Source: an uncultured Leptospirales bacterium
Lineage (GTDB): Bacteria > Spirochaetota > UBA4802 > JAFGDQ01
Reading direction: 5' to 3'
Assembly (NCBI GenBank): GCA_964626055.1
Contig: CAZVDF010000005.1
Span: forward strand, 6,057-70,056
Length of the DNA stretch: 64,000 nt
Positions 11,364-62,666 of the stretch are shown here, in pieces (the stretch's first letter is position 1; every line of letters starts with the position of its first letter). The notes beneath the pieces are model-generated. The model saw only the letters and a list, made by a program, of their open reading frames with translations, did no database searches and was not told where the DNA came from. Position numbers and translations under genes: made by a program.

Positions 11364-12467
11364 ATGAAAAAAATATTTTTCGTATTAATTTTTTTTATTA
11401 TGACTGTCTGCTTCTGCGCTACTTCCGAAACCATACGATTATATAATAAGGAAATTTCATATTCATATTCAGATCCTGAAGCGGCTTTTCTTAACGACGT
11501 CATAAAAGGGAAGCTGATAATGGTTATGACTTTTGTGGAAGAAAAGCTTGTCGATATTAACTGCAGGGATTCTTCAGGTAAAACTGCCCTGATATACGCT
11601 TCGCAAAACGGGAATTTGAACATAATGGAATATCTGATTTCAAAAAATGCAGATTTAAACATACAGGACGGGAACGGAGTGACTGCCCTGATGTCTGCCG
11701 TCAAATTCAGAAAACCGGATGTCGTGCAGTATTTGCTTGGCAGGAATGCGGACGTAAAGCTTCTGGATTCGTATGGCTACACTGCGATGAAAATTGCAGT
11801 TGAAGGACAGCTGAATGATATTGTAAAAATATTGAGTTCGAATAGTGAATGCGTTGCCGCGCCTGACGGAGACGGGGAAACGCCTTTGATTTTTGCTGTA
11901 AAGAATAAATTTTACAATGCAGCTCTGATTCTGGCGGCAAGCGATGCGGGAATAAACGCCAGGGATAAAAACGGTCAAAACGCTCTCATACTGGCTGTAT
12001 ACAGGAAGTATTATGACATTGTTCAGCTTTTGCTGCAGAATAAATGCGAATTAAACGAACGGGACAATAACGGCCAGACCGCGCTCATGATTGCCGTATA
12101 TTATAAGTTTTATGATGGTGTTAAGCTCCTGCTGGAAAACAAGTGCGATGTAAAGATAAAGGACAATTCCGGCCAGACGGCACTTATTATTGCGGCATCG
12201 ATCAATAACTACGATGTTATACAGCAATTGCTGGATAACGGAAGCGAAATAGATGCTCAGGATAAAAGCGGGCAGACCGCTCTTATGAAAGCTGCGGATT
12301 ATAATTATTATTATATTGCGGAACTCCTGCTCCAGAACGGGGCCGATATAGATTTAGTTGACAATTTGAAGAAGACTGCGATAACAATAGCTGAGGAGAA
12401 CAGAAGGAAAGAGATTCTCGCTTTGTTGTCTGAACATAGAATAAACAAAATTAATAAAGACAGATAA
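11364..12467 (+). CDS. Ankyrin-repeat protein with signal peptide
   Basis: About nine tandem 33-aa repeats of the form G.TALM.A...G....V..LL..GAD.N. Confidence 0.8.
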   Translation: MKKIFFVLIFFIMTVCFCATSETIRLYNKEISYSYSDPEAAFLNDVIKGKLIMVMTFVEEKLVDINCRDSSGKTALIYASQNGNLNIMEYLISKNADLNIQDGNGVTALMSAVKFRKPDVVQYLLGRNADVKLLDSYGYTAMKIAVEGQLNDIVKILSSNSECVAAPDGDGETPLIFAVKNKFYNAALILAASDAGINARDKNGQNALILAVYRKYYDIVQLLLQNKCELNERDNNGQTALMIAVYYKFYDGVKLLLENKCDVKIKDNSGQTALIIAASINNYDVIQQLLDNGSEIDAQDKSGQTALMKAADYNYYYIAELLLQNGADIDLVDNLKKTAITIAEENRRKEILALLSEHRINKINKDR

Positions 12468-18582: not shown

Positions 18583-20244
18583 ATGCAAAAAAATAAAATT
18601 ATAATTTTGATCATATCATTTTTAATCATTTCCGCAAAGAACGATATTACAAATATCGTAAAAATGCCTTCGGCCGAATATCCTTCAGCCAATATAGAGA
18701 AACAGAACGCGATTGTTACATCCGATCCTGCAGGCAAAGAAGTATTTACAGTTAAAGATTTATCATACAGGGGAGAGAGCGATCCTTTGATCACAGATGT
18801 CTTATTATCATTCAATACTCCTTCTCCCTATCTTAAAAAAGACGATACCGGAAAATATATTATTCAGCAGGCACTTTATAAATTCATAAAAGAGAACGGC
18901 GTTCTCGGCGGGGGAGGGGCGGGATTTTCGCAAAGGGATCATAAAGTCGAAATCGAACCATCCAGGAATTTATGGCTCGGAAGCGCCGGCGATCTCGGAT
19001 CTTTTACGCTTGAATTCAGATTATTGCCGGTCGCTTTTAATAATGAAAGCGTTTTATTTTCCAGGGTGGGTTATTTTTCCGGCAGGAAGAACGGCATAGA
19101 AGTTAAAATAAAAGATAAAAGAATAATAGTAAATCTTTACCGAATATTTAAAGACTCCAGAGGAATAAGGTATGATGTCAGTCTTATTAAAGGCAGAGAC
19201 CTTGAGCTTAAAAAATGGCATCATTTCATATTCAGTTTCGACCGTATTTCAGGCAAGCTCGCGAAATACCTGAACGGACATGAAGAAGATGCAATATTTG
19301 TCACCGAAACGGACAGGCCTTTTGAAGATGTGTATGAACCGTCTTTTGAATCTGTAGATATGCCTGCCGCGGTAATAGGAAAAAAGTACTACGGTTATCT
19401 TGATGAATTCAGGATAACATATCGGCATATTGAAGATTTGAAGAAGGAAACGGATATTGCGTATAAAAATTATAAAAAACTCGGGACTCTCGGCAGGCAG
19501 CCCGTGAATCAGGTCGGGATTGTGACCAGCCCGGTATATGCTTTCGCTTCAACAGGGACATCCGTTTCGTTATTAAAATGGAATGAGCTGTTAAAAGAGA
19601 ATACATATATCTGGATGGAATTCAGAATAAGCGATAATCTGTTCGATAAAAATGACAAAGCGCTTAAGTGGTACCGGATAACGAACAGTCAGAAAAATAT
19701 TTATTTGATGAAAGAAGCGGGTGAATACCTGAGAGGCAAATATTACCAGTGGAAAGCTTATCTTGTCCCGTCGCCTGAGGGGAAAAATTCGCCTTATCTT
19801 TACGATGTCGAACTGACCTATCGGCTCGATCCTCCTCCGGCGGTTCCTCAATTTGTCTCATCAGCAAATGCGGGCGATAAGATCGTTCGAATCAAATGGA
19901 ATAAGAATGTAGAACACGATATTCTGGGCTACAGAATTTATTACGGCGTTATGCCGAATAAATATGAAGGCATCATAGGATATATAAACGGGAAAAGGAT
20001 AACGAATGAATTCAATAGCGGCAGAAAATATATTGAATTGGAATTGACCAATGACATAATTGAAGAAAATAAGCAGAAAGACCCGGCAGGCGTACTGGAG
20101 TACCCGTTTTTGGAAAACACTGTCCTTTACTTTTTTGCTGTCAGTGCATACGATTCGTACAGACCGGACACCCCCTATAATCATGAATCTTCATTATCGG
20201 AAGCTGTTAAAGCCCGCCCCTTCGCAGGGTCTGAAATAAAATAG
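18583..20244 (+). CDS. Hypothetical secreted protein, possibly a lectin/LamG-like domain plus an FN3-like C-terminal domain
   Basis: Signal peptide. The C-terminal segment PPPAVPQFVSSANAGDKIVRIKWNKNVEHDILGYRIYYG has an FN3-like pattern. The gene is bracketed by MITE-like copies A and B. Confidence 0.45.
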   Translation: MQKNKIIILIISFLIISAKNDITNIVKMPSAEYPSANIEKQNAIVTSDPAGKEVFTVKDLSYRGESDPLITDVLLSFNTPSPYLKKDDTGKYIIQQALYKFIKENGVLGGGGAGFSQRDHKVEIEPSRNLWLGSAGDLGSFTLEFRLLPVAFNNESVLFSRVGYFSGRKNGIEVKIKDKRIIVNLYRIFKDSRGIRYDVSLIKGRDLELKKWHHFIFSFDRISGKLAKYLNGHEEDAIFVTETDRPFEDVYEPSFESVDMPAAVIGKKYYGYLDEFRITYRHIEDLKKETDIAYKNYKKLGTLGRQPVNQVGIVTSPVYAFASTGTSVSLLKWNELLKENTYIWMEFRISDNLFDKNDKALKWYRITNSQKNIYLMKEAGEYLRGKYYQWKAYLVPSPEGKNSPYLYDVELTYRLDPPPAVPQFVSSANAGDKIVRIKWNKNVEHDILGYRIYYGVMPNKYEGIIGYINGKRITNEFNSGRKYIELELTNDIIEENKQKDPAGVLEYPFLENTVLYFFAVSAYDSYRPDTPYNHESSLSEAVKARPFAGSEIK

Positions 20245-20359
20245 CCGGGAATAATCTCAAAAATACTTTACTATAAATCCCGCAATAAGATAATATTGAA
20301 TTAATATATCTTATAATCAGAAGTCATCTCAGAATTATATTTTCACATAAATGATTAAT

Positions 20360-20490
20360 GATAAGTTGGAATACATTACAAAATTTTCTGCGGAATCAGA
20401 CCTTCCGGGTCAATCTTTTATGCTTTTGAACGCTATTGCATCAGGTCTGAAAGGCGTCCTCAAAAATTTTGTAATGTATTCCAACTTATC
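20360..20490. repeat. Palindromic MITE-like element, copy B (131 bp), with perfect 28-bp terminal inverted repeats
   Basis: gataagttggaatacattacaaaatttt (20360-20387) is the exact reverse complement of 20463-20490. The 64-aa ORF 20351-20545 inside it is very likely spurious. Confidence 0.6.
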
Positions 20491-20545
20491 AACAGATAGA
20501 TTACTATTTATAAACGACTTCTATTATTATTTTATCAATATTTAA

Positions 20546-21940
20546 ATGAAAAAGAACAGTTCGAAAATATTAAATAAAAGGCTTCAAATACCTCTTCTTG
20601 TCAGTAAGGAGATTAAAGAAATAGTTAATAAATTAACTGACAAAGGATATGAATGCTATCTTGTGGGCGGGTCGGTACGGGATCTTGTTCTCGGGCATGA
20701 AGTTCTCGATTATGATTTCGCAACCAATGCCCTCCCTGAAGATGTAATTAGGATTTTCCGCAGAACTGTGCCCACGGGTATCAAACACGGCACTGTAACT
20801 GTTCTGATGAAAAACAGGCAGTATGAAGTCACGACATACAGGGCGGACGGCAAATACATCGACGGCCGGAGACCCGAGAGCGTTTCGTTCTCGGAAACAC
20901 TGGAACAGGATGTCAGGAGGCGCGACTTTACTATAAACGGCCTTGCCTATGATATTGCAAATGAAAATGTAATAGATTATGTCAACGGGCTTGATGATAT
21001 CGATAAAAGGATCATAAGAACTATAGGCGATCCGCTTGAAAGATTCGGCGAGGACGGGCTCAGGCCTTACAGGGCCTGCAGATTCGCAGCCAGGCTTTAT
21101 TTCAGCATAGATCCGGATACTTTGGCTGCTATGTCTAAAACTCTGGATACTGCAAAGGCGGTATCCGCTGAAAGAGTACGAGACGAACTTTTAAAAATTA
21201 TGGATACCGAAAAGCCTTCAATAGGCCTTGAGTATATGCGGGAGACCGGTTTAATGAACCTTGCTCTGCCCGAGCTTCTTGAGGGATATAACGTAAGACA
21301 AAACAAATATCATATTTACGATATTTATTATCACAGTTTGTATTCCTGTGACGCCATACCGGATGCCGACCGCATCATCAAATTCGCCGCATTGCTACAT
21401 GATATAGGCAAGGCTGCGACAAGGAAGGAAGATGAGAACGGCGAAGGCACCTTTTATAATCATGAAGTGGTCGGCGCAAAGATTGCCAGGCGCATAATGA
21501 GAAGGCTTAAATTCTCCAATGAAGAGATCATTAAAGTAACAAACCTGATTATAAATCATATGTTTCACTATGTAAATGACTGGACCGACGGTGCGGTGAG
21601 AAGATTTATGAGGAAGGTCGGGCTCGAGAATCTGAATGACCTCTTAGTTCTTCGTCTCGCAGACAGAAGAGGAAACGGACAACGGGACGGTCTCCCGGCG
21701 CCGATCATACAGCTGCAGAAAAGAATCGATAAAGTAATAGAAGAAGACAGCGCGCTTACAGTCAGGGACCTTGATATCGACGGCCATGTAATTATGAGCG
21801 AATTTAATGTTGAACCCGGGCCGGTGATAGGGAAAATTCTTAACGAACTTCTGGAAATGGTTCTTGACGATCCGGAAACAAATAAAAGGGATATTTTGCT
21901 TTCCAGAGCGAGGGAGATATATAAAGGATTGTATCAATAG
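20546..21940 (+). CDS. cca: CCA-adding tRNA nucleotidyltransferase with HD domain
   Basis: N-terminal polymerase-beta motif LVGGSVRDLVLG, a central HD motif (LLHDIGK) and a C-terminal extension. Confidence 0.8.
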   Translation: MKKNSSKILNKRLQIPLLVSKEIKEIVNKLTDKGYECYLVGGSVRDLVLGHEVLDYDFATNALPEDVIRIFRRTVPTGIKHGTVTVLMKNRQYEVTTYRADGKYIDGRRPESVSFSETLEQDVRRRDFTINGLAYDIANENVIDYVNGLDDIDKRIIRTIGDPLERFGEDGLRPYRACRFAARLYFSIDPDTLAAMSKTLDTAKAVSAERVRDELLKIMDTEKPSIGLEYMRETGLMNLALPELLEGYNVRQNKYHIYDIYYHSLYSCDAIPDADRIIKFAALLHDIGKAATRKEDENGEGTFYNHEVVGAKIARRIMRRLKFSNEEIIKVTNLIINHMFHYVNDWTDGAVRRFMRKVGLENLNDLLVLRLADRRGNGQRDGLPAPIIQLQKRIDKVIEEDSALTVRDLDIDGHVIMSEFNVEPGPVIGKILNELLEMVLDDPETNKRDILLSRAREIYKGLYQ

Positions 21941-25992: not shown

Positions 25993-26871
25993 TTAAAAAT
26001 ACTCCGGGAATAATATTTTAAGTTTTTTTCGCTGTCTTGGATCCATCTTTTCCGGAGCTGTAAGAATTGAATTTTTTACAGCTTCTTTACATTCGCATGT
26101 TCTTTCTTTTCCCAGGTGAGGCAGCATCGCCTTTAAAAGTTTTTTTGCATTGTCTGCATTTTTATTAAGGTTGCTTATCAGCATCTCCACGCTTACGTGC
26201 TCTTCGTCTTCTTTCCAGCAGTCGTAATCCGTACTCATGCAGATAATTGTGTAGCAGATTTCAGCTTCGCGCGCAAGTTTCGCTTCGGGCAGCGTGCTCA
26301 TATTTATTATGCCCGCGCCCCATGACCTGTACATATTGCTTTCCGCTCTTGTGGAAAACGCCGGTCCTTCCATGCATACGACGGTTTCATTTGCATGAAG
26401 TTTAAGGCCCTTTGCTTTGGCTACAGGTCTGATTATTTCCTGAAGCCTGGAACAGAACGGATGAGCGAAAGCTATATGTGCCGCGATACCGTTCCCAAAG
26501 AAAGTACTCGGCCTTGATTTTGTCCTGTCGATTACCTGGGAAGGGAGTACGAAATCCAGCGGCCTGATTTTTTCTTTAAGGCTGCCGACAGCGGAGAAAG
26601 CCAGAATTTCTTCAACGCCCAGCATCTTTAAAGCCGCAATATTTGCCCTTGAATTTACTTCATGAGGAAGAATGGAATGCCCTCTGCCGTGCCTTGGAAG
26701 GAATGCAGTTAAATTCCCTTCTACCCTGGCAATAACGATCGAATCCGAAGGTTTTCCCCACGGAGTTTTCAAATTTAATTCTTTTATAATTTCAACTCCT
26801 TCTATTTCGTAAATACCCGAACCGCCTATGACTGCAGAGTTTATTTTTTCCATTGAGTTGTTTTTCTCCAC
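25993..26871 (-). CDS. mtnP: S-methyl-5'-thioadenosine phosphorylase (PNP family)
   Basis: N-terminal AVIGGSGIYEIEG and the PNP/MTAP fold pattern. The length is about 290 aa. Confidence 0.8.
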   Translation of the reverse strand: MEKNNSMEKINSAVIGGSGIYEIEGVEIIKELNLKTPWGKPSDSIVIARVEGNLTAFLPRHGRGHSILPHEVNSRANIAALKMLGVEEILAFSAVGSLKEKIRPLDFVLPSQVIDRTKSRPSTFFGNGIAAHIAFAHPFCSRLQEIIRPVAKAKGLKLHANETVVCMEGPAFSTRAESNMYRSWGAGIINMSTLPEAKLAREAEICYTIICMSTDYDCWKEDEEHVSVEMLISNLNKNADNAKKLLKAMLPHLGKERTCECKEAVKNSILTAPEKMDPRQRKKLKILFPEYF

Positions 26872-27085
26872 TTAGATTATTTCAAAATTTAATATTATAC
26901 GTTTACATTCATGTCAAGATAAAATAAATTTTAGGTGTTAATGCAGGAAAATGCTCTATATACTTATTTTTTAAAAATTTGAAGTTTTAATAAATAGATC
27001 GATGTAGCGTTCATTACACTTCATGTAGCATTCATCACATCTCACATAACGTTTGTGACAATCCGGTTTACATAAAAAATCCATA

Positions 27086-27931
27086 ATGATATCTTCAATT
27101 TTATTCTATAAAGTTATACGGGACAGTCACGTGAGATTAGAAGTTGAGATTGGCTTTAAAAGTAAACCGCCTTTTTTAATTCCTGCTACTTATAGAAGGA
27201 ATATAGTAAGCCTCATAAGAGAATCCGTAAGATCGACGGATACAACCATGGATATTTACACCAAATATTGGGGCGAGGGCAATGCCCAAAGCATAAAACC
27301 GTACACATTTTTTTTGTCTATCCCGGGTGTAAATTATATAAATCTTAAACGAAAAAGATATATAGAAGCCCATGAAGATTCGGTAAAGCTGCATATTTCA
27401 TCGAGCGATTCTATTCTTCTTTCAATCTTTCATAAATGGCTTAACAATAATAAGCTGTTTAATTTATTTAATATTAATGTTGAAGTAGCGGGAATAAGTT
27501 TAAAAAACATTAAAACAATAAACTCGAGCTCCGTCACTTTTAAGATTTTATCCCCTGTGATTGTAAGGGATACGGAAATCGAAGGAAGAAAGAGGAAGGG
27601 AACCGGATACTTATCCTGCAATGACCACGATTTTGAAGATTCCCTGTCGCATTCGATTCTGAATCTTTGCAGGCGTTTTTTATATAATAAAAGGATAAGC
27701 AGAAACGATATCGAGATCGATGCTTCTCTCTGCGCGCACTCGGTAATTTACCATTACATGGAGACAATCCCGGTTACCATAGGCCTGATAAAAATTAAAG
27801 CGGATGAAGATGTACTTGAGCTGGTATATAATACCGGTCTTGGAGCCAGGCGCAGCCAGGGATTCGGCATGGTCGAACTGGTGTCTGAATCCGGATTTGC
27901 GCCGGTGCCGGCAATGAAGGAACTCGCCTAG
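27086..27931 (+). CDS. cas6: Cas6-family endoribonuclease homolog (solitary)
   Basis: The N-terminal ferredoxin-like domain has the Cas6 KPF/YTFS-type motif (IKPYTFFLSIP). The C-terminus has the diagnostic glycine-rich loop G-h-G-x5-G-h-G followed by hydrophobic residues (GLGARRSQGFGMVELV). Confidence 0.7.
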   Translation: MISSILFYKVIRDSHVRLEVEIGFKSKPPFLIPATYRRNIVSLIRESVRSTDTTMDIYTKYWGEGNAQSIKPYTFFLSIPGVNYINLKRKRYIEAHEDSVKLHISSSDSILLSIFHKWLNNNKLFNLFNINVEVAGISLKNIKTINSSSVTFKILSPVIVRDTEIEGRKRKGTGYLSCNDHDFEDSLSHSILNLCRRFLYNKRISRNDIEIDASLCAHSVIYHYMETIPVTIGLIKIKADEDVLELVYNTGLGARRSQGFGMVELVSESGFAPVPAMKELA

Positions 27932-28097
27932 AAAAATTAATTTTGTTCTTTGATTTTAATACCATCCTGAAAACCTGATTTGGAGTTCGTCCCAAAATCT
28001 ATTCCCGAAACCTGATTAAATATTATTTGACAAAATTAATTTTTATTATTAGGGTTTTGGGCGTCATTTTAAAGAAATTTTTTAACAGGGGGGCTAT

Positions 28098-29414
28098 ATG
28101 TTTGAAAAACTTTTCAGGCTTAAGGAGAGAAATACAAGCGTAAAAATTGAAGTGCTGGCCGGTATTACGACTTTTATGACAATGGCATATATTATTGCGG
28201 CTAATCCGATGATCCTATCTGCTGCAGGGATGGACAAGGGCGCAGTAGTGCTGGCTACATGCATCGTGAGCGGCATCATTACTATTGTAATGGGATTGTT
28301 CTCGAACTACCCCATAGCGCTGGCGCCCGGAATGGGTATAAATGCGTTCTTTGCCTTCGCGATCTGCAAGGGAATGGGGATAGACTGGCGTGTTGGTCTT
28401 GGTTTCTTTTTTATTGAAGGTATAATAATTCTTATAGTCACAATGACCAAGCTTCGGGAAACGGTAATCAATTCAATTCCGATGTCTTTAAAATGCGCAG
28501 TAAGCGTCGGTATCGGACTTTTCCTGGCTTTTATCGGATTCGAGAATGCCGGTTTTATCGCGAAATCCGATGCCACATTTATTACAATAGCCCAGATCGG
28601 GAATCCTGATATTTATCCGAAAATAATTCTTGTTGCAATAGTTCTGATATTTACTACGATCCTGCTGTTCAAGAAAATTAAGGGCGCAATTCTTATCGGA
28701 ATAATTGTCGGCACCCTGCTGAGCTTTATACCGTTTTTTAATGCGAAAGGAGAGGCATTGCAGATACTTTCTCCGACTCTTGCTCCGACGTTTTTTCAAC
28801 TCGATATACTCGGCGCTCTGCAATGGTCTTTTGCGGCGTTGATCGTTACCCTGCTGTTCGTGGATTTTTTTGATACTGCCGGTACCGTCATAGGTCTGGC
28901 TGTTAAAGCGAAAGTCGTTGATAGCAAGGGCAGGATCCCGGGGATAGGGAGAGTACTCATCTCGGATTCTTTCGGACCGATCCTTGGCGCGCTGTTCGGA
29001 ACATCGACTGTTACTTCATACATTGAAAGTGCTGCCGGCATAGAAGAGGGAGGAAAGACCGGTTTGACTGCAGTTGTTACAGGTGTCCTGTTCTTAATCG
29101 CTATCGTGGCTGCGCCGCTTATCGGCTTTGTCCCGTCTGCGGCAGTAGCCCCTGCGTTGATAATAGTCGGTATAATGATGATGGAATCGGTGACCAGAAT
29201 AAATTTCTCCGATTACTCTGAAGCGGTGCCGGCGTTTATTACCATAGCAGTCATGCCGTTTACTTACAGCATATCAAACGGTATCTTTATGGGATTTTTA
29301 TCCTATGTTCTGATCAAATTGCTTTCAGGTAAGGCAAAAGAAATTTCAATAATAATGTATATACTTGCAGTTTTCTTTTTGTTGTTCTTTATATTTAGCC
29401 CTGTATATAAATGA
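28098..29414 (+). CDS. NCS2-family purine permease (AzgA/PbuG-like)
   Basis: 438 aa with about 12 TM helices. The N-terminal FRLKERNTSVKIEVLAGITTFMTMAYII is typical of adenine/guanine/hypoxanthine permeases. Confidence 0.8.
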   Translation: MFEKLFRLKERNTSVKIEVLAGITTFMTMAYIIAANPMILSAAGMDKGAVVLATCIVSGIITIVMGLFSNYPIALAPGMGINAFFAFAICKGMGIDWRVGLGFFFIEGIIILIVTMTKLRETVINSIPMSLKCAVSVGIGLFLAFIGFENAGFIAKSDATFITIAQIGNPDIYPKIILVAIVLIFTTILLFKKIKGAILIGIIVGTLLSFIPFFNAKGEALQILSPTLAPTFFQLDILGALQWSFAALIVTLLFVDFFDTAGTVIGLAVKAKVVDSKGRIPGIGRVLISDSFGPILGALFGTSTVTSYIESAAGIEEGGKTGLTAVVTGVLFLIAIVAAPLIGFVPSAAVAPALIIVGIMMMESVTRINFSDYSEAVPAFITIAVMPFTYSISNGIFMGFLSYVLIKLLSGKAKEISIIMYILAVFFLLFFIFSPVYK

Positions 29415-29448
29415 AAAGATATATTTTAATAAAGCTGTTCTTTCAAAT

Positions 29449-29480
29449 AAAACCGCGCATTAATGCGCGGTTTTTTTAAT
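29449..29480 (+). terminator. Rho-independent terminator after the permease gene
   Basis: aaaccgcgcat-taat-gcgcggttt stem plus a ttttttt tract. Confidence 0.6.
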
Positions 29481-29624
29481 TTTTGACTTGATTTCTCCGG
29501 TTATTGTGACCGATGATATTCGGATGTCCATTTTTCGTATACCGGTATTTGATCACGGTTTTTATATCGACGGCAATATTTGAAATTCAATACTTAATAT
29601 TATTAACCTGCGGGGATAAATGAA

Positions 29625-30983
29625 ATGTTCTCCAAATTAAAAGCAGTATTGGTAATTTTTATAATATCCTTTACAGCAGTAAACGGCAATGCCGCCGCGG
29701 ATGGTACAGACGTACCCGGCTATAAACAGAAAGGCAACTTCGAACTGGGAGGCGCTTTCGGCACCCCGTCCGGATTAAATTCCAGATACTGGTTCACCGA
29801 AAGGTTCGGTCTTGATGTTAACGCAGGCGTTTCTCTCGAAAAAAGACCTGTGTTTACAATGGATTTTTTGGTGGAAGACTATAAGCTTTACAGATCAAGC
29901 ACGTTCGAGGCCAGGTTTTTTTACGGCCTGGGCGGTATGGTTGTAAAAGAGAAACACGACTATGAAAATAATTTAAGGATTCCTTTAGGATTTTCTTTCC
30001 CGATGATGCAATATCCTATTAATTTTTCCGTTTATGTCGCACCCGCTCTCATCGTGCATCCGAAGTCGGAATTCGACATTAACTGGGGTATAGGCGTCAG
30101 ATATAATTTCTCAAGGGCTTCCGAGATCATGGAAAAGCAGCATCATCTTGAAAGGGAAGTGGAGAGTCTTAAATACGGTCTCGATACTACAAAGGGAAAA
30201 CTTGCCGAGACTGAAGGAGAGCTCAGTAAAACAAAAGGCAAAGTAGATGAGCTGAACCATAGACTCTGGAATTTGAAAACCAAACTTGATAAAACGGAAA
30301 GCGAGCTTGATACCACGAAGACAAAATTAGTTCTGACGACCAGACAGCTTGATGACACGAAGAACCAGCTTGATGAGGTTAAGACTGAACTGCGGAACAC
30401 GAAAAAAAATCTGGACGACAAGCAGCTTGAACTTACAAAAAAGCAGTCTGAACTGGATAACGCGAAGATAATTATTGAAAATGCGTATACCGGGAAAATG
30501 AAAGAAGATGAAGAAGAAAAAATATCCAGGAAGCAGAAAGAACTTGATGATCAGAAAGCGGAATTAAATAATCAAAAAAAAGCCTGGGAACAGATAAAAG
30601 TCAAGGAGGCTCAAAAGAGAGAGGATTTAAAGAAGAAGTGCCAGGACAGAGGAGGAATCATAGATGAGAACGGATACTGCACGTGCCCGGAAAATCAGGA
30701 ATGGGATCCGAAGACAGATAAATGCGTCTGCGTAAAAGGATATTACAGGAACGGACCGGCAGAGAGATGCAAGCCGTGTGAAATAATAAAAGAAAGCGGA
30801 GAATGCGCAGGCGGCTGCGCGGATTTCGAGGAAAAAGTACGGTTGAAAAAGGGTCCGCATAAATTCGTTTGCGTGAAGAGATGCCGGAAAGCCAATGAGG
30901 TGTGGTCCAGACATAAAGGAGCATGTGTCTGCAGGGACGGTTATTACAGGAACGATGCCGGCGAATGCATAAAGAGGCAGTAA
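29625..30983 (+). CDS. Outer-membrane beta-barrel / long coiled-coil / Cys-rich C-terminal domain protein
   Basis: Signal peptide. The ~160-aa N-terminal region alternates hydrophobic residues and ends in an aromatic YNF (OmpA/OmpW-like 8-strand barrel). A ~180-aa heptad-like repeat region follows (LDTTKGKL, LDKTESEL, LDDTKNQL ...). The C-terminus carries about 12 Cys in EGF-like spacing (CTCPENQEWDPKTDKCVCVKGYY ... CVCRDGYY). Confidence 0.5.
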   Translation: MFSKLKAVLVIFIISFTAVNGNAAADGTDVPGYKQKGNFELGGAFGTPSGLNSRYWFTERFGLDVNAGVSLEKRPVFTMDFLVEDYKLYRSSTFEARFFYGLGGMVVKEKHDYENNLRIPLGFSFPMMQYPINFSVYVAPALIVHPKSEFDINWGIGVRYNFSRASEIMEKQHHLEREVESLKYGLDTTKGKLAETEGELSKTKGKVDELNHRLWNLKTKLDKTESELDTTKTKLVLTTRQLDDTKNQLDEVKTELRNTKKNLDDKQLELTKKQSELDNAKIIIENAYTGKMKEDEEEKISRKQKELDDQKAELNNQKKAWEQIKVKEAQKREDLKKKCQDRGGIIDENGYCTCPENQEWDPKTDKCVCVKGYYRNGPAERCKPCEIIKESGECAGGCADFEEKVRLKKGPHKFVCVKRCRKANEVWSRHKGACVCRDGYYRNDAGECIKRQ

Positions 30984-31002
30984 CATAATTATTTTAGTAT
31001 AA

Positions 31003-31092
31003 GGAGATAATGATAGTATCCCTAATTTCCTGCGGAACTCGGCCTTTGGCCTCAGACAGTCCTCGGAAATTTGGGATACTATCATTATCTCC
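31003..31092. other. Perfect 20-bp inverted-repeat stem enclosing a conserved 42-nt core, copy 1 (candidate structured RNA or REP-like element)
   Basis: ggagataatgatagtatccc (31003-31022) is the exact reverse complement of 31073-31092. The core ttcctgcggaactcggcct-ttg-gcctcagacagtcctcggaa (31027-31068) recurs at 60041-60082. Confidence 0.5.
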
Positions 31093-31154
31093 AATGGTAT
31101 TTATAAATTAATCTAAAGACAAGAAATTCAATTTTTTTATCCGGAGGAATAAAA

Positions 31155-31937
31155 ATGAGTTTTGCGAGAAGGGAATGGATCGCTCTCGGGATATCCGCGA
31201 TTGTTGCATTTGTTTTTATAGCGCTAATGACTGTCTTTCTCGGGAAGGGCCAGATGGGCATAATGCTCTTCGGGACGGACTCGGCCTACTATCCTTTTAC
31301 CCTTTACAATTTAATGCACCTGTTCTTTTTTATCGGACTTGGCCAGCTCTGGGTAAGATGGCTCAGCACATATGAAGAGAAAGTTTTTTTAAAAAAGTCC
31401 GGATTCCTTCCCGAAGACGAACATGCAATGTTAAAAACCGATGATGAAATCGAGAAAATAAGGATTAATGCAGCCAATGCGGCGGTAAGGGGAGAGGCTT
31501 TTCTTCCAGGGCTTATAAACAACTGCATAAATCAATATTTTAAATCTCATTCTGTAAGCGATACGATTTCCGTCTTAAACAGCGATCTTGAGCTGAATAT
31601 ACACAGGCTGGACCTGCGGTATTCCATGTGCAGATATATCGTCTGGGCTATCCCGACATTCGGATTTATCGGAACAGTGGTGGGGATCGCCGGGGCTCTT
31701 ACTAAACTTGATATTGTTAAATTCATGGGGTCGCAAACCGACAAGGTAGCGCAGTTCAGGATGCTGGCGTCCGATCTCGGATTCGCATTCGATACGACAA
31801 TAGTCGCGCTGGTTTTGAGCTCGATATTCGTATTTCTTATGCATATAGTCCAGAGCGGCGAGGAGGAAGTACTGAACAGATCCGGCAAATACGTACTGAC
31901 CAATCTGATAAATAAACTTGCCATAAAAAATAAATAA
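31155..31937 (+). CDS. MotA/TolQ/ExbB-family proton-channel protein
   Basis: Three TM segments. The conserved C-terminal helices (AIPTFGFIGTVVGIAGAL ... DLGFAFDTTIVALVLSSIFVF) match the MotA/TolQ/ExbB signature. Confidence 0.65.
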   Translation: MSFARREWIALGISAIVAFVFIALMTVFLGKGQMGIMLFGTDSAYYPFTLYNLMHLFFFIGLGQLWVRWLSTYEEKVFLKKSGFLPEDEHAMLKTDDEIEKIRINAANAAVRGEAFLPGLINNCINQYFKSHSVSDTISVLNSDLELNIHRLDLRYSMCRYIVWAIPTFGFIGTVVGIAGALTKLDIVKFMGSQTDKVAQFRMLASDLGFAFDTTIVALVLSSIFVFLMHIVQSGEEEVLNRSGKYVLTNLINKLAIKNK

Positions 31938-60185: not shown

Positions 60186-61979
60186 ATGGCGCTTATAAAT
60201 TTTCAAAATATCTCTCTTGCCTTCGGTGATATATCAATACTCGATAGTGTGGATATTCAGATCCATAAGGATGAAAAAATATGCCTGCTCGGAAGGAACG
60301 GTTCCGGAAAATCCACAATGATGAAACTCATTAACGGCGATCTGGATCCTGATTCCGGAACGATTTTCCGCGAGAAAGGATTGAAAACCGCTCTTCTGCC
60401 GCAGGAAGTCCCGCGCGGGATATCGGGCTCCGTATACTCCATTATTGCATCCGGAACTGTCGATCACGATTCAATGCTTCATCATCTCGATAAATTTGAG
60501 GAGCAGAAAATCAGGATGCAGATTGAAAAAACAATATCCCTTATGAATCTTGATCCGGAACTTCTTTTTGAAAATCTTTCAGCTGGAATGAAGAGAAGGG
60601 TAATGCTGGGTCGCGCGCTTGCGATTGAACCCGATGTTATTCTTCTCGATGAACCGACGAATCATCTTGATATCGGTTCAATAAGATGGCTTGAAGATTC
60701 CCTCTCGAGATATGATAAAACAATATTTTTTGTAACTCATGACCGCGCTTTTCTGCAAAAGATAGCCGATCGCATAATCGAGCTCGACAGGGGCAAGATC
60801 TTCGACTGGAAATGCGACTACCGGACATTTCTGCAAAGAAAGGACGCATGGCTGGAATCCGAAGAGATACGCAATGCCGGGTTCGATAAAAAGCTCGCGC
60901 AGGAAGAAGCATGGATAAGACGCGGCGTAAAGGCGCGCCGCAGGAGGAATGAGGGCAGGGTAAGGGAACTCATGAAGATGAGGGAAGAGAGAGCCGCCCG
61001 CAAAGAGAGAGCAGGGAGTGTTCGCATGGAAATGCAGAAAGCGGAAAATTCCGGCAGGATGATAATAGAAGCAACAGATATTTCTTTCGGATACACCGAT
61101 GTAAAGCTTTTCTCGAAATTTTCAGCCAGAATAATGAGGGGCGACCGCATAGGAATTGTCGGGCCTAACGGATGCGGCAAAAGCACGCTCATGAAAACTC
61201 TGCTGAGTGAACTTGAGCCTCAGACCGGTAATGTGCGTATCGGCACGGGAATTCAAAAAGCGTATTTTGATCAGCTGCGAAACCAGCTCGACGATGACCT
61301 CTCAATAAAAGAGAATGTTCTGGATGGAGGGGATGTAATTGAATTCAACGGCAGGAAGAGACATGTGATAGGATATCTCGAAGATTTTCTTTTCCCACCC
61401 GACAGGGTTGACATGCCGGTAAAGGTTCTGTCCGGAGGCGAAAAGAACAGGCTTCTGCTCGCAAAACTTTTTACAAGACCCTCTAATTTTCTTGTCATGG
61501 ATGAACCGACAAATGATCTTGACATCGAAACGATTGAACTTCTGGAAGAAATCCTTCTTGAATACGACGGGACTCTGCTTCTGGTAAGCCATGACAGGGC
61601 ATTCCTTAATAATGTCGTTACAGGAATATTTGCATTCGAGGGTAAGTCCGTTGTCAGGGAATATGCCGGAGGCTACGACGACTGGCTTTCCCAAAAGGCT
61701 AATGAAACAGTAAAGGGAGTAAAACAAAAAAAGAATTTTGCAGCAAAAAAGACAAACGAAAAGACAAAACTGACTTTCAAAGAAAAAAAAGAGCTGGAGT
61801 CTATTCCGCAGGAAATAGAAGAAAAAGAAAAAAGAAAGCATGAGATATTTGCTTTAATGGCTGATCCTGTATTTTATCAGGAAAGCGGTTCAAAGATTGC
61901 TGAAATAAAAGAGGAACTGGAAGAGCTTGAGAAAGACCTCGTGTTTCTTTTTGCCAGATGGGAAGAACTGGAGTCGTGA
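60186..61979 (+). CDS. ABC-F family ATPase (Uup/EttA-like, two ABC domains, no TMD)
   Basis: Two Walker A motifs (GRNGSGKST, GPNGCGKST), two LSGGEK/LSAGMK signatures, an inter-domain linker and a C-terminal coiled-coil tail. Confidence 0.85.
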   Translation: MALINFQNISLAFGDISILDSVDIQIHKDEKICLLGRNGSGKSTMMKLINGDLDPDSGTIFREKGLKTALLPQEVPRGISGSVYSIIASGTVDHDSMLHHLDKFEEQKIRMQIEKTISLMNLDPELLFENLSAGMKRRVMLGRALAIEPDVILLDEPTNHLDIGSIRWLEDSLSRYDKTIFFVTHDRAFLQKIADRIIELDRGKIFDWKCDYRTFLQRKDAWLESEEIRNAGFDKKLAQEEAWIRRGVKARRRRNEGRVRELMKMREERAARKERAGSVRMEMQKAENSGRMIIEATDISFGYTDVKLFSKFSARIMRGDRIGIVGPNGCGKSTLMKTLLSELEPQTGNVRIGTGIQKAYFDQLRNQLDDDLSIKENVLDGGDVIEFNGRKRHVIGYLEDFLFPPDRVDMPVKVLSGGEKNRLLLAKLFTRPSNFLVMDEPTNDLDIETIELLEEILLEYDGTLLLVSHDRAFLNNVVTGIFAFEGKSVVREYAGGYDDWLSQKANETVKGVKQKKNFAAKKTNEKTKLTFKEKKELESIPQEIEEKEKRKHEIFALMADPVFYQESGSKIAEIKEELEELEKDLVFLFARWEELES

Positions 61980-62073: not shown

Positions 62074-62364
62074 ATGATAGAGATCAGACAAACAGAAACA
62101 TATAAGAAATGGTTCTCTTCCTTAAGAGACAGAAATGCAAAAATTCGGATTGATATTAGAATTAGAAGACTTTCTCTGGGTAATTATGGAAACGCAAAGC
62201 CTGTAGGAGCTGGAATATCGGAATTAAGAATTAATTACGGCCCGGGTTATAGAATATATTATATAAGAACGGATAATGAAATAATAATTCTGCTGGCAGG
62301 CGGCGATAAATCGACCCAATCAAGGGATATAAAGAAAGCGAAAGAGATTAGAGGTGTGATATGA
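62074..62364 (+). CDS. Type II toxin, RelE/ParE superfamily (HigB-like, COG3657 addiction-module killer)
   Basis: 96 aa. Pattern FSSLRDRNAKIRIDIRIRRLSLGNYGNAKPVGAGISELRINYGPGYRIYY. It overlaps the downstream gene by 4 nt. Confidence 0.7.
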   Translation: MIEIRQTETYKKWFSSLRDRNAKIRIDIRIRRLSLGNYGNAKPVGAGISELRINYGPGYRIYYIRTDNEIIILLAGGDKSTQSRDIKKAKEIRGVI

Positions 62365-62666
62365 AAAAAGAAAAAATAAGCATATGGGATGCTGCAGAGC
62401 ACCTTGAAACTGAAAAAGATATGGCCGCATATTTAGAAGCAGCATTGGAAGAAAATGACCCTTCACTAATTGCAGCTGCGTTGGGTGACATCGCGAGGGC
62501 TAAAGGAATGTCACGAATATCGAAGCGGACAGGACTTGGCAGGGAAAGCCTGTACAAAGCATTATCACCGGAGGGAAATCCTGAATTTTCTACAATACTA
62601 AAAGTTGTCAATGCTTTGGGATTAAAATTTCAGGCTGTTCCTGGAAAAATTAAATCTGCGGTTTAA
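62361..62666 (+). CDS. Cognate antitoxin (HigA-like / COG3636 addiction-module antidote, HTH)
   Basis: 101 aa. WDAAEHLETEKDMAAYLEAALEE...IAAALGDIARAKGMSRISKRTGLGRESLYKAL is the HTH core of this antidote family. Confidence 0.7.
   Translation: MKKEKISIWDAAEHLETEKDMAAYLEAALEENDPSLIAAALGDIARAKGMSRISKRTGLGRESLYKALSPEGNPEFSTILKVVNALGLKFQAVPGKIKSAV

What the first reader, a model, noticed from the sequence alone, without database searches (positions are those of the whole stretch)
27086..27931. Solitary Cas6 homolog with no CRISPR array or other cas genes, between mtnP and a purine permease
The protein carries both Cas6 hallmarks: the N-terminal KP(F/Y)TF-type motif (IKPYTFFLSIP) and the C-terminal glycine-rich loop GLGARRSQGFG followed by hydrophobics. 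The flanking genes are housekeeping, and nothing in the 64 kb resembles a CRISPR array or cas1/cas2/effector genes. An orphan Cas6 could be a relic of a lost locus. It could also serve a CRISPR array elsewhere, or have been recruited to process another structured RNA. The short palindromic and tandem motifs in its flanks (27003-27066 and 27975-28035) are candidate cognate hairpins.
Basis: partly seen in the sequence, partly recalled or inferred. Interest (0 to 1): 0.62.

Follow-up and report, generated by a model that had tools for sequence, protein, structure and literature searches.

The report
Conserved stand-alone Cas6 gene in spirochaetes
This is a real, intact Cas6 RNA-cutting enzyme gene that has sat alone between housekeeping genes, with no CRISPR machinery nearby, throughout a group of uncultured spirochaetes; it most likely serves CRISPR arrays elsewhere in the genome but may have been recruited to another RNA.

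Summary
ORF 27086-27931 is a genuine Cas6: TIGR01877 and PF01881 score above their cutoffs, the best PADLOC models are Cas6b, and the predicted fold matches solved Cas6 structures. The true start is probably GTG 27131. The 64-kb window has no CRISPR array and no other cas gene. The only "Cas3" hit is the HD domain of the CCA-adding enzyme.

It is neither a relic nor the edge of a locus. Seven further lineages of uncultured Spirochaetota (44-77% identity) carry the gene next to the same mtnP-like phosphorylase, the same purine permease, or both. The ORF is intact in all of them, dN/dS is about 0.1-0.25, and GC content matches the neighbours. Of 49 relatives with enough flank, 46 are the first gene of a type I-B operon. 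This clade is therefore a derived, fixed, stand-alone state.

The proposed flanking "hairpins" are not supported. The upstream motif is three 21-bp direct repeats ending 10 bp before a conserved -35/-10 promoter, a LytTR-like activator layout. It is probably not transcribed and folds no better than shuffled sequence. The downstream spacer is not conserved.

The best reading is a trans-acting stand-alone Cas6, like Thermus TtCas6A. Exaptation to a non-CRISPR RNA is not excluded, because I could not see the whole genomes.

The parts
27131..27931 (+). cas6 coding sequence, 266 aa plus stop, from the probable true start GTG 27131. The ORF listed from ATG 27086 is an upstream extension.
   Evidence: All 18 homologues start at the position of V16. 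A conserved GGA/GGGA ribosome-binding site lies 7-8 nt upstream. Residues 1-15 of the model have low confidence.
27296..27310 (+). K71-P-Y-T-F75 motif. K71 aligns with the catalytic Lys52 of P. furiosus Cas6.
   Evidence: K71, P72 and T74 are invariant in all 19 sequences.
27836..27868 (+). Glycine-rich loop GLGARRSQGFG, the RAMP/Cas6 hallmark.
   Evidence: G251, G253, R256, Q258, G259, F260 and G261 are invariant. It aligns with the G-loop of solved Cas6 proteins.
27881..27928 (+). C-terminal tail of about 16 residues (..PVPAMKELA), specific to the clade and predicted disordered. Operon-embedded type I-B relatives lack it.
   Evidence: Alignment. pLDDT is below 50 for residues 268-281. Tail-bearing representatives P0021 and P0022 appear.
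27002..27064 (.). Three direct repeats with a 21-bp period. The 9-mers are AGCGTTCAT (27006-27014), AGCATTCAT (27027-27035) and AACGTTTGT (27048-27056). Probably an activator operator with a LytTR-like 9-12-9-12-9 layout.
   Evidence: The core TAGCGTTCATTAC is conserved in 5 loci although the surrounding spacer is not. There is no other copy in the window. The architecture was compared with PMC6193735.
27067..27095 (+). Predicted sigma-70 promoter of cas6: -35 TTTACA (27067-27072), a 17-nt spacer, then an extended -10 TGATATCTT (TG at 27087-27088, hexamer 27090-27095).
   Evidence: The -35 and its 10-bp distance from the third repeat are invariant in 5 loci.
25993..26871 (-). Divergently transcribed PNP_UDP_1 phosphorylase (mtnP-like). 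It is the conserved upstream neighbour.
   Evidence: The same neighbour is seen, and by tblastn to the partial upstream ORFs of L101 and L102.
28098..29414 (+). Xan_ur_permease (purine permease), the usual downstream neighbour. It has its own conserved -35 (TTGACA, 28027-28032).

Best explanation
This is a functional, vertically inherited, stand-alone Cas6 of the type I-B (Cas6b-like) lineage. An ancestor of this group of uncultured Spirochaetota separated cas6 from a cas6-cas8b-cas7-cas5-cas3 operon. The gene became fixed as a single-gene unit between an mtnP-like phosphorylase gene and a purine permease gene.

It has its own sigma-70 promoter, preceded by three 21-bp-spaced activator-type repeats. 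Expression is therefore probably conditional.

The protein keeps the double-RRM Cas6 fold, the glycine-rich loop and every residue that is invariant in its operon-embedded relatives. I infer that it still binds, and most likely cleaves, a specific repeat-type RNA without metal.

The most likely substrate is pre-crRNA from CRISPR arrays located elsewhere in the genome, for example a type III or type I locus without its own cas6. That would make it a trans-acting enzyme like Thermus thermophilus TtCas6A.

Shown here: family membership, fold, solitary position, synteny, purifying selection, derived state, and conservation of the promoter and repeats. Inferred: RNA cleavage, activator control, and the identity and location of the substrate.
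For: Cas6 identity rests.

Solitary state: no arrays or cas genes in 64 kb, nor within 10 kb either side in L001 and L002.

Synteny: seven further lineages at 44-77% identity share the mtnP-like neighbour, the permease, or both.

Selection: the ORF is intact everywhere. NG86 dN/dS is 0.10-0.16 for the closest pairs and at most 0.29 overall.

Composition: GC is 39%, against a window mean of 41.5 +/- 3.4%.

Derived state: 46 of 49 non-redundant relatives with at least 3 kb of downstream flank have cas7/cas5/cas3 directly downstream. The nearest outgroups (P0012 39%, P0013 and P0014 33%) head type I-B operons.

Conserved residues: every column invariant across operon-embedded and solitary members is kept, namely P33, R37, K71, P72, T74, R161, Y175 and the G-loop.

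[quoted passage not shown] The only other solitary relative in my survey is L016, from Ca. Chrysopegis kryptomonas, between hpf/HPr kinase and efp. It belongs to a phylum in which all described genomes carry I-B/III-A CRISPR-Cas (PMC4737851).
Against: No CRISPR array or effector genes were seen for any genome of the clade. Only 64 kb plus two 20-kb stretches could be read.

CRISPR-Cas loci are usually volatile. This cas6, by contrast, has stayed fixed at one housekeeping position across divergence at which neighbours are 73-92% identical and Cas6 is 50-63% identical. That pattern is unusual for a defence gene.

The clade also acquired a C-terminal tail, a basic insertion and a dedicated activator-type promoter that the operon-embedded relatives lack.

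The canonical catalytic His is absent: Gly63 aligns with PfCas6 His46, and Arg45 with Tyr31. This is also true of the operon-embedded relatives.

My attempt to find type I-B Cas7 proteins from the same assemblies was inconclusive.
Confidence: 0.5

Rival explanations
1. Exapted Cas6. The enzyme no longer serves CRISPR immunity. It has been domesticated as a sequence- or structure-specific RNA-binding or RNA-processing protein for a cellular RNA (an mRNA, sRNA or repeated hairpin element), switched on by a signal-responsive activator.
For: It is fixed at one housekeeping position over genus-to-family level divergence, while neighbours on either side are occasionally replaced. It is under purifying selection. 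It has a clade-specific tail and basic insertion. It has its own conserved promoter with three activator-type repeats, which type I-B operon heads in these data do not share. No array lies within reach. The Cas6 homology search returned only one Cas6 for each of the two MAGs. The same lineage carries an unusual family of long hairpin elements, a conceivable substrate but one with no evidence linking it to Cas6.
Against: No candidate substrate is conserved next to the gene. Cas6 evolves faster than every annotated neighbour, which suits a defence-linked protein at least as well as a housekeeping one. Stand-alone cas6 genes with ordinary crRNA function are known. Absence of CRISPR from these genomes has not been shown.
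Confidence: 0.3
2. Non-catalytic Cas6. The protein binds RNA but does not cut it, like P. horikoshii Cas6nc (PH0350). It would act as an RNA chaperone or repressor.
For: The canonical Tyr/His of the PfCas6 triad are replaced by Arg45 and Gly63. Among the best structural matches are PH0350 and the P. furiosus Cas6-related protein 3UFC.
Against: The same substitutions occur in relatives that head complete type I-B operons and must supply crRNAs there. The catalytic-Lys equivalent K71 is invariant, whereas the PH0350 alignment shows no Lys at the aligned position. From my own knowledge, not checked here, active Cas6 enzymes without a catalytic His exist, for example Sulfolobus Cas6 (PDB 4ILL).
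Confidence: 0.1
3. Decaying relic of a lost CRISPR-Cas locus with no current function.
For: The gene is solitary. It is the fastest-evolving annotated protein in the neighbourhood, at 50-63% identity against 73-92% for its neighbours.
Against: The ORF is full-length and intact in all 11 clade sequences. dN/dS is 0.1-0.25. All family-invariant residues are kept. The promoter and operator are conserved. GC content has equilibrated with the host.
Confidence: 0.03
4. Edge of an ordinary CRISPR-Cas locus, or an enzyme with cis-encoded substrates: either an operon or array lies just outside the window, or the flanking motifs are its hairpin substrates.
For: Short repeats do exist at 27002-27043 and at 27971/28008.
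Against: There are 27 kb upstream and 36 kb downstream without cas genes or arrays, and orthologous loci are the same over 10 kb either side. The upstream repeats lie upstream of the -35 and fold no better than shuffles (z = -0.15). The downstream spacer is unconserved (z = -0.18). The repeat of the nearest type I-B relative has no match in the window with up to 3 mismatches.
Confidence: 0.03

Closest known systems
Thermus thermophilus TtCas6A (TTHA0078), a stand-alone Cas6
   Same: It is a Cas6 gene encoded outside any CRISPR-cas locus, and the protein is a bona fide Cas6 fold. In Thermus it processes repeats of arrays elsewhere in the genome (PMC3902920). This is the functional model I favour.
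   Different: TtCas6A has a catalytic His (the H37A mutant structure 4C97 is listed) and recognises hairpin repeats. The present protein lacks that His. It is only distantly similar in structure (TM about 0.5). Its substrate and any partner CRISPR locus are unknown. Deep syntenic fixation and an activator-type promoter have not, to my knowledge, been described for TtCas6A.
Operon-embedded type I-B Cas6 (Cas6b-like) of Spirochaetota and other bacteria (P0012-P0016; loci L003, L006, L103 and others)
   Same: This is the same subfamily. The best PADLOC models are Cas6b. Identity is 33-39%. The invariant residues are identical, including K-P-x-T-F, R161, Y175 and the G-loop. The His-less active site is the same.
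   Different: Those genes are the first gene of cas6-cas8b-cas7-cas5-cas3-cas4-cas1-cas2 operons with arrays. The present clade is monocistronic among housekeeping genes. It has a roughly 16-residue C-terminal tail and a basic insertion (EIEGRKRKG).
Archaeal Cas6 and Cas6-like structures: P. furiosus Cas6 (3PKM, 3I4H), M. jannaschii Cas6-1 (5YI6), P. horikoshii PH0350 (3QJJ), P. furiosus Cas6-related protein (3UFC)
   Same: These are the closest solved relatives by sequence profile (E about 1e-16) and by fold (TM up to 0.85 normalised on the target). K71 aligns with the catalytic Lys52 of PfCas6.
   Different: PfCas6 Tyr31 and His46 align with Arg45 and Gly63 here. Sequence identity is only 16-23%.
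Solitary cas6 of Candidatus Chrysopegis kryptomonas (L016, P0017)
   Same: It is an independent case of a Cas6 of the same broad subfamily (28% identity) standing alone among housekeeping genes, between hpf/HPr kinase and efp. It has no cas gene or array within 10 kb either side.
   Different: It is a different phylum and a different insertion site, and it lacks the C-terminal tail. Kryptonia genomes are reported to carry I-B/III-A CRISPR-Cas elsewhere (PMC4737851). That is not known for the spirochaete clade.

Membership tests
Cas6 endoribonuclease family (TIGR01877 / PF01881) | Sequence-profile match above the curated cutoffs | tested here: met
   TIGR01877 scores 96.4 bits against a cutoff of 58.65. 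PF01881 scores 79.9 bits against 23. There are 16 PADLOC Cas6, Cas6b or type IV Cas6 models at E<=3e-5, out of 24 families listed at E<=1.
Cas6 endoribonuclease family (TIGR01877 / PF01881) | Tandem ferredoxin-like (RRM) fold | tested here: met
   The AlphaFold model has pLDDT 83 and pTM 0.82. The top 20 Foldseek PDB hits are all Cas6 or Cas6-related structures, with probability 1.00 and TM up to 0.75/0.85.
Cas6 endoribonuclease family (TIGR01877 / PF01881) | C-terminal glycine-rich loop (G-h-G-x5-G-h-G) | tested here: met
   GLGARRSQGFG spans residues 251-261. It is invariant in 19 sequences and aligns with the G-loop of solved Cas6 proteins.
Cas6 endoribonuclease family (TIGR01877 / PF01881) | Catalytic triad of the PfCas6 type (Tyr31, His46, Lys52) | tested here: not met
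   Only the Lys is present (K71). Arg45 aligns with Tyr31 and Gly63 with His46. The same holds for operon-embedded relatives, so this is a subfamily trait rather than a loss in the solitary clade. The triad is not universal in the family.
Cas6 endoribonuclease family (TIGR01877 / PF01881) | Genomic association with a CRISPR array and other cas genes | tested here: not met
   None is present in the 64-kb window, nor within 10 kb either side in L001 and L002. Association elsewhere in the genome could not be tested.
Cas6 endoribonuclease family (TIGR01877 / PF01881) | Metal-independent, site-specific cleavage of repeat RNA | not testable with these tools
   This needs recombinant protein and candidate RNAs.
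Type I-B Cas6b as a component of a I-B operon | First gene of cas6-cas8b-cas7-cas5-cas3(-cas4-cas1-cas2) | tested here: not met
   46 of 49 relatives with sufficient flank show this arrangement. The window, L001 and L002 do not.
LytTR-type activator-dependent promoter | 9-bp direct repeats separated by 12 bp, ending about 10 bp upstream of the -35 | tested here: met
   The layout is AGCGTTCAT-N12-AGCATTCAT-N12-AACGTTTGT-N10-TTTACA-N17-TATCTT (27006-27095). The spacing is invariant in 5 loci. The published architecture is in PMC6193735.
LytTR-type activator-dependent promoter | A LytTR-domain regulator that binds the repeats | not tested
   No LytTR domain appears among the annotated neighbours. 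The window was not scanned exhaustively for it, and the genome is unavailable. Other regulators that bind direct repeats are not excluded.

The most novel reading that the evidence does not exclude
A Cas6 endoribonuclease has been domesticated in a lineage of uncultured Spirochaetota. It was detached from type I-B CRISPR-Cas, fixed among purine and methionine-salvage genes, and placed under a signal-responsive (LytTR-like) activator. It would now process or bind a non-CRISPR cellular RNA, possibly the lineage-specific long hairpin elements with the conserved core CTGCGGAA...GTCCTC. This would be a natural case of a Cas6 exapted for host RNA metabolism.
Probability: 0.3. Interest if true: 0.75.

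Novelty: new member of a known kind. Interest (0 to 1): 0.42.

Why it matters
Stand-alone Cas6 enzymes are known, so a solitary cas6 is not surprising in itself. What is unusual is how stable this one is. The gene has been kept at the same housekeeping position, under purifying selection and with its own conserved activator-type promoter, across a whole group of spirochaetes, whereas CRISPR-Cas loci usually come and go.

If the clade's genomes carry CRISPR loci without a cas6 of their own, this is a clean natural example of a crRNA-processing enzyme that is unlinked from its locus and separately regulated. If they carry none, it would be a documented exaptation of Cas6 for host RNA processing. 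That would be of interest for CRISPR evolution and as a source of a new orthogonal RNA-processing tool.

Tried and rejected
1. I searched the window for the repeat of the nearest type I-B relative (GTTTTAGTTTCCAATAGTGGGATATAAAC) with up to 3 mismatches and found no match.

2. I tested the flanking motifs as RNA hairpins. The single-sequence fold z-scores are -0.15 and -0.18. The alifold consensus is weak, at -8.8 kcal/mol with a covariation term of -0.9, and it simply pairs repeat copies with one another. Rejected.

3. Rfam gave nothing relevant at the gathering threshold, nor at E<=1 over 26800-31200.

4. The "Cas3" PADLOC hits in the window are the HD domain of the CCA-adding enzyme. The mad2, mad3, AriA and PtuA hits are generic methyltransferase and ABC-F ATPase matches.

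5. I tried to find out whether the two MAGs with orthologues encode type I-B effector genes. I ran a Cas7 profile search (3120 hits, 120 shown) and compared accessions. The Spirochaetota hits (MDH7554676.1, MGB4268036.1) do not share the accession series of P0006 (MBN2403827.1) or P0009 (MFH0974906.1), so they are probably from other assemblies. The result is inconclusive and does not show absence.

6. The window's own protein (P0001, on a 103.5-kb NCBI contig) could not be located with the look-up of encoding contigs. Its genome is not among the GTDB representatives.

7. The metagenome scan added only one clade member with DNA (L021).

8. The core of the hairpin element was not found in viral contigs.
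Full report
**1. The observation**

The ORF at 27086-27931 (+), 281 aa, is present as described. It is unambiguously a Cas6.
- Pfam Cas_Cas6_C scores 3.7e-22, or 79.9 bits against a cutoff of 23.
- NCBIfam TIGR01877 cas_cas6 (an equivalog model) scores 3e-27, or 96.4 bits against 58.65.
- The two best PADLOC models are Cas6b, at 6.6e-42 and 2.2e-37.

A profile built from the protein and its homologues finds the Cas6 proteins of M. jannaschii, P. horikoshii and P. furiosus in the PDB at E about 1e-16. An AlphaFold model (pLDDT 83, pTM 0.82) has only Cas6 or Cas6-related structures as its top 20 Foldseek matches. The TM-score reaches 0.75 on the query and 0.85 on the target.

K71-P-Y-T-F75 aligns its Lys with the catalytic Lys52 of PfCas6. 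The glycine-rich loop is G251-LGARRSQGF-G261.

One correction is needed. All 18 homologues begin at the position of V16. The upstream ATG lies inside the predicted -10 element, and the extra 15 residues are modelled with low confidence. The gene most likely starts at GTG 27131, giving 266 aa, behind a GGGA ribosome-binding site at 27120-27123.

**2. The gene is alone**

- No spaced direct repeats or tandem arrays resembling a CRISPR occur anywhere in the 64 kb. An independent k-mer array finder that recovered arrays in eleven control loci also found none.
- Rfam and tRNA scans are empty.
- I scanned the other 55 ORFs of the window against PADLOC. The only cas-named hits are Cas3-HD models at 1e-8. 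They fall on residues 254-341 of the 464-aa gene at 20546-21940. That gene's orthologue in L001 carries PolyA_pol, HD and tRNA_NucTran2_2 domains, so it is the CCA-adding enzyme and the hits are its generic HD domain.
- HMMs for Cas8b, Cas7, Cas5, Cas3, Cas4, Cas1 and Cas2, iterated on about 100 related loci, hit nothing in the window.
- The neighbours are a PNP_UDP_1 phosphorylase (mtnP-like, divergent) and a Xan_ur_permease. The rest of the window is housekeeping: Omp85/BamA, SecDF, enoyl-CoA hydratases, a class II tRNA synthetase (PF00152), UbiD, radical SAM/CofH-MqnC-type enzymes and others.

**3. Not a relic and not a locus edge**

A homology search returned a tight clade of 11 proteins at 43-100% identity. 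Wherever context could be read, the same neighbourhood recurs.
- P0006 (63% identity, Spirochaetes MAG GCA_016934735.1) and P0009 (51%, Spirochaetota MAG GCA_043803405.1) both show ...enoyl-CoA hydratase, two hypothetical genes, PNP_UDP_1 (minus strand) | cas6 (plus strand) | Xan_ur_permease, coiled-coil protein, MotA/ExbB... No cas gene lies within 10 kb either side.
- P0005 (69%), P0003 (76%) and P0007 (64%) have the PNP_UDP_1 gene annotated directly upstream. For P0004 (74%, L101) and P0002 (77%, L102) the upstream ORF is partial and unannotated, but tblastn identifies it as the mtnP orthologue at 83-84% identity.
- P0010 (44%, L021) keeps the permease but has an AraC-type regulator upstream.
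- The permease is missing in P0005 and replaced in L102. cas6 is therefore at least as stable as its neighbours.

Between the window and the two MAGs the neighbouring proteins are 73-92% identical, while Cas6 is 63% and 50% identical. It is the fastest-evolving annotated gene there, but it is clearly constrained. The ORF is intact in all sequences. NG86 dN/dS is 0.10-0.16 for the closest pairs and at most 0.29 overall, with dS near saturation. Its GC content (39%) is within one standard deviation of the window's genes, at 41.5 +/- 3.4%.

An exhaustive HMMER search of 1.84 billion representatives found only two additional tail-bearing representatives at the 50% level. The clade is therefore narrow.

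**4. Where it came from**

The next relatives (P0012 39%, P0013 and P0014 33%) are the first gene of classical type I-B operons, cas6-(toxin/antitoxin)-cas8b-cas7-cas5-cas3-cas4-cas1-cas2. L006 to L008 also carry a 41-repeat array after cas2.

I surveyed all fetched loci. Of 49 non-redundant relatives with at least 3 kb of downstream flank, 46 have cas7, cas5 or cas3 immediately downstream. The three exceptions are the two spirochaete orthologues and L016 from Ca. Chrysopegis kryptomonas. The solitary state is therefore derived from an operon-embedded Cas6b.

Compared with those relatives, the clade gained a disordered C-terminal tail of about 16 residues (..VMKELA) and a basic insertion (EIEGRKRKG). 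It kept every residue that is invariant across the whole alignment: P33, R37, K71, P72, T74, R161, Y175 and the G-loop.

The canonical PfCas6 Tyr31 and His46 are Arg45 and Gly63 here. This is equally true of the operon-embedded members. It is a property of the subfamily and not a sign of inactivation.

**5. The flanking motifs**

*Upstream.* The motif at 27003-27066 is real and conserved, but it is not a hairpin substrate. Alignment of five orthologous spacers shows an island of conservation in otherwise unalignable AT-rich sequence. In the window it reads as follows:
- three direct repeats with an exact 21-bp period (9-mers AGCGTTCAT, AGCATTCAT, AACGTTTGT);
- 10 bp of spacer;
- an invariant TTTACA;
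- 17 bp of spacer;
- an extended -10, TGnTATCTT.

The repeats therefore sit at about -40 to -105 relative to the predicted start, upstream of the promoter, and should not be transcribed with cas6. The divergent mtnP-like gene appears to have its own conserved TTGACA closer to its start; I read this from alignment A4.

The motif occurs nowhere else in the window. As RNA the region folds no better than shuffles (z = -0.15). The alifold consensus merely pairs repeat copies and has a negligible covariation term.

The layout of 9 bp, 12 bp, 9 bp, then about 10 bp to the -35 is the published signature of promoters activated by LytTR-family regulators (PMC6193735; PMC4227749). I treat this as an inference about regulation, not a demonstrated fact.

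*Downstream.* The spacer at 27932-28097 is not conserved except for the permease's own TTGACA and its ribosome-binding site. It has two AAACCTGATT copies and a 15-nt inverted repeat that are peculiar to this genome. It does not fold better than shuffles (z = -0.18).

cas6 thus looks monocistronic, with no conserved cis-encoded substrate.

**6. What it most likely does**

The protein is a conserved, selected Cas6 with intact RNA-binding hallmarks. Binding, and probably cleavage, of a specific RNA is the only reasonable activity.

Two precedents make a trans-acting CRISPR role the default.
- The only other solitary relative in my survey belongs to the Kryptonia. All described genomes of that phylum carry I-B/III-A CRISPR-Cas (PMC4737851; context).

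Several features fit a domesticated gene at least as well:
- the long-term fixation at one housekeeping position;
- the dedicated activator-type promoter;
- the new tail;
- the absence of any second Cas6 from the two MAGs in the homology search.

I could not inspect the rest of these genomes. The attempt through a Cas7 profile search and accession numbers was inconclusive.

My probabilities are about 0.5 for trans-acting crRNA processing and 0.3 for exaptation to a non-CRISPR RNA. A non-catalytic binder gets about 0.1. A relic or a locus edge gets a few percent each.

**7. Literature and novelty**

[quoted passage not shown] They also found a review of CRISPR exaptations that lists no solitary Cas6 case (PMC8730458). 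They found nothing on this spirochaete clade.

I therefore class it as a new member of a known kind, the stand-alone Cas6, with an unusual degree of syntenic fixation. It deserves a moderate score and a simple follow-up: array and cas typing of the complete genomes.

**8. Seen in passing**

The window contains two copies of a striking hairpin element.
- 31003-31092 has a 20-bp perfect stem.
- 20359-20491 has a 29-bp perfect stem.
- The RNA fold z-scores are -7.5 to -8.3.

The central cores both begin (C)TGCGGAA and end GTCCTC. A third copy in L002 shares a 96%-identical 48-nt core with the first, but lies at a different genomic site and has entirely different, again perfect, arms. All three copies are co-oriented with their neighbouring genes.

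Neither Rfam nor viral contigs match, apart from a spurious plant-miRNA-precursor hit. The pattern occurs nowhere else in the 980 kb of fetched loci. Nothing links the elements to Cas6 beyond co-occurrence in the lineage, but they are an obvious RNA to test.

Noticed in passing
window 31003-31092; L002 20717-20806 (minus strand): A 90-nt perfect hairpin lies between the coiled-coil gene and the MotA/ExbB gene. It has 20-bp arms around the core AATTTCCTGCGGAACTCGGCCTTTGGCCTCAGACAGTCCTCGGAAATT. The RNA fold is -51 kcal/mol, z = -7.5 on the plus strand and -8.3 on the minus strand. The 48-nt core is 96% identical in L002, at a different genomic site, where it is flanked by completely different but again perfect 21-bp arms. 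There is no match in Rfam or in viral contigs.
   Followed up: partly
window 20359-20491: A second member of the same hairpin family lies between gene 18583-20244 and the CCA-adding enzyme gene. It has perfect 29-bp arms around a 75-nt core that starts CTGCGGAA and ends GTCCTC like the first copy. The RNA fold is -55 kcal/mol, z = -7.9. In 980 kb of fetched loci the pattern occurs only in this lineage (twice in the window, once in L002), always co-oriented with the adjacent genes.
   Followed up: partly
L016 9953-10708 (Candidatus Chrysopegis kryptomonas, NZ_CZVW01000005.1): An independent solitary Cas6 (28% identity) lies between hpf plus HPr kinase and efp. No cas gene or array lies within 10 kb either side. 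Kryptonia genomes are reported to have I-B/III-A CRISPR-Cas elsewhere.
   Followed up: partly
window 26885-26925 (minus strand): The block TTCATGTCAAGATAAAAT is conserved in all orthologous spacers. On the minus strand it reads as a TTGACA -35 element for the divergent mtnP-like gene. That places both divergent promoters on either side of the three 21-bp repeats.
   Followed up: partly
window 27932-27946 / 28030-28044 and 27971-27980 / 28008-28017: A perfect 15-nt inverted repeat (AAAAATTAATTTTGT / ACAAAATTAATTTTT) brackets 83 nt that contain two AAACCTGATT copies. This is absent from orthologous spacers. It may be a small insertion next to the permease promoter.
   Followed up: no
window 62074-62666: Two small overlapping ORFs of 96 and 101 aa look, from their sequence alone, like a RelE/HigB-type addiction-module killer and its HTH antitoxin. 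I did not test this with profiles.
   Followed up: no
window 60186-61979: An ABC-F type ATPase gives a strong PADLOC hit to mad3 (4e-52) and weaker hits to AriA, PtuA and GajA. This is most likely generic ABC ATPase similarity rather than a defence system.
   Followed up: partly
window 12006-12193: A 99-nt tandem repeat (1.9 copies, 74% match) lies inside the ankyrin-repeat gene at 11364-12467. It corresponds to three ankyrin modules at the protein level.
   Followed up: no
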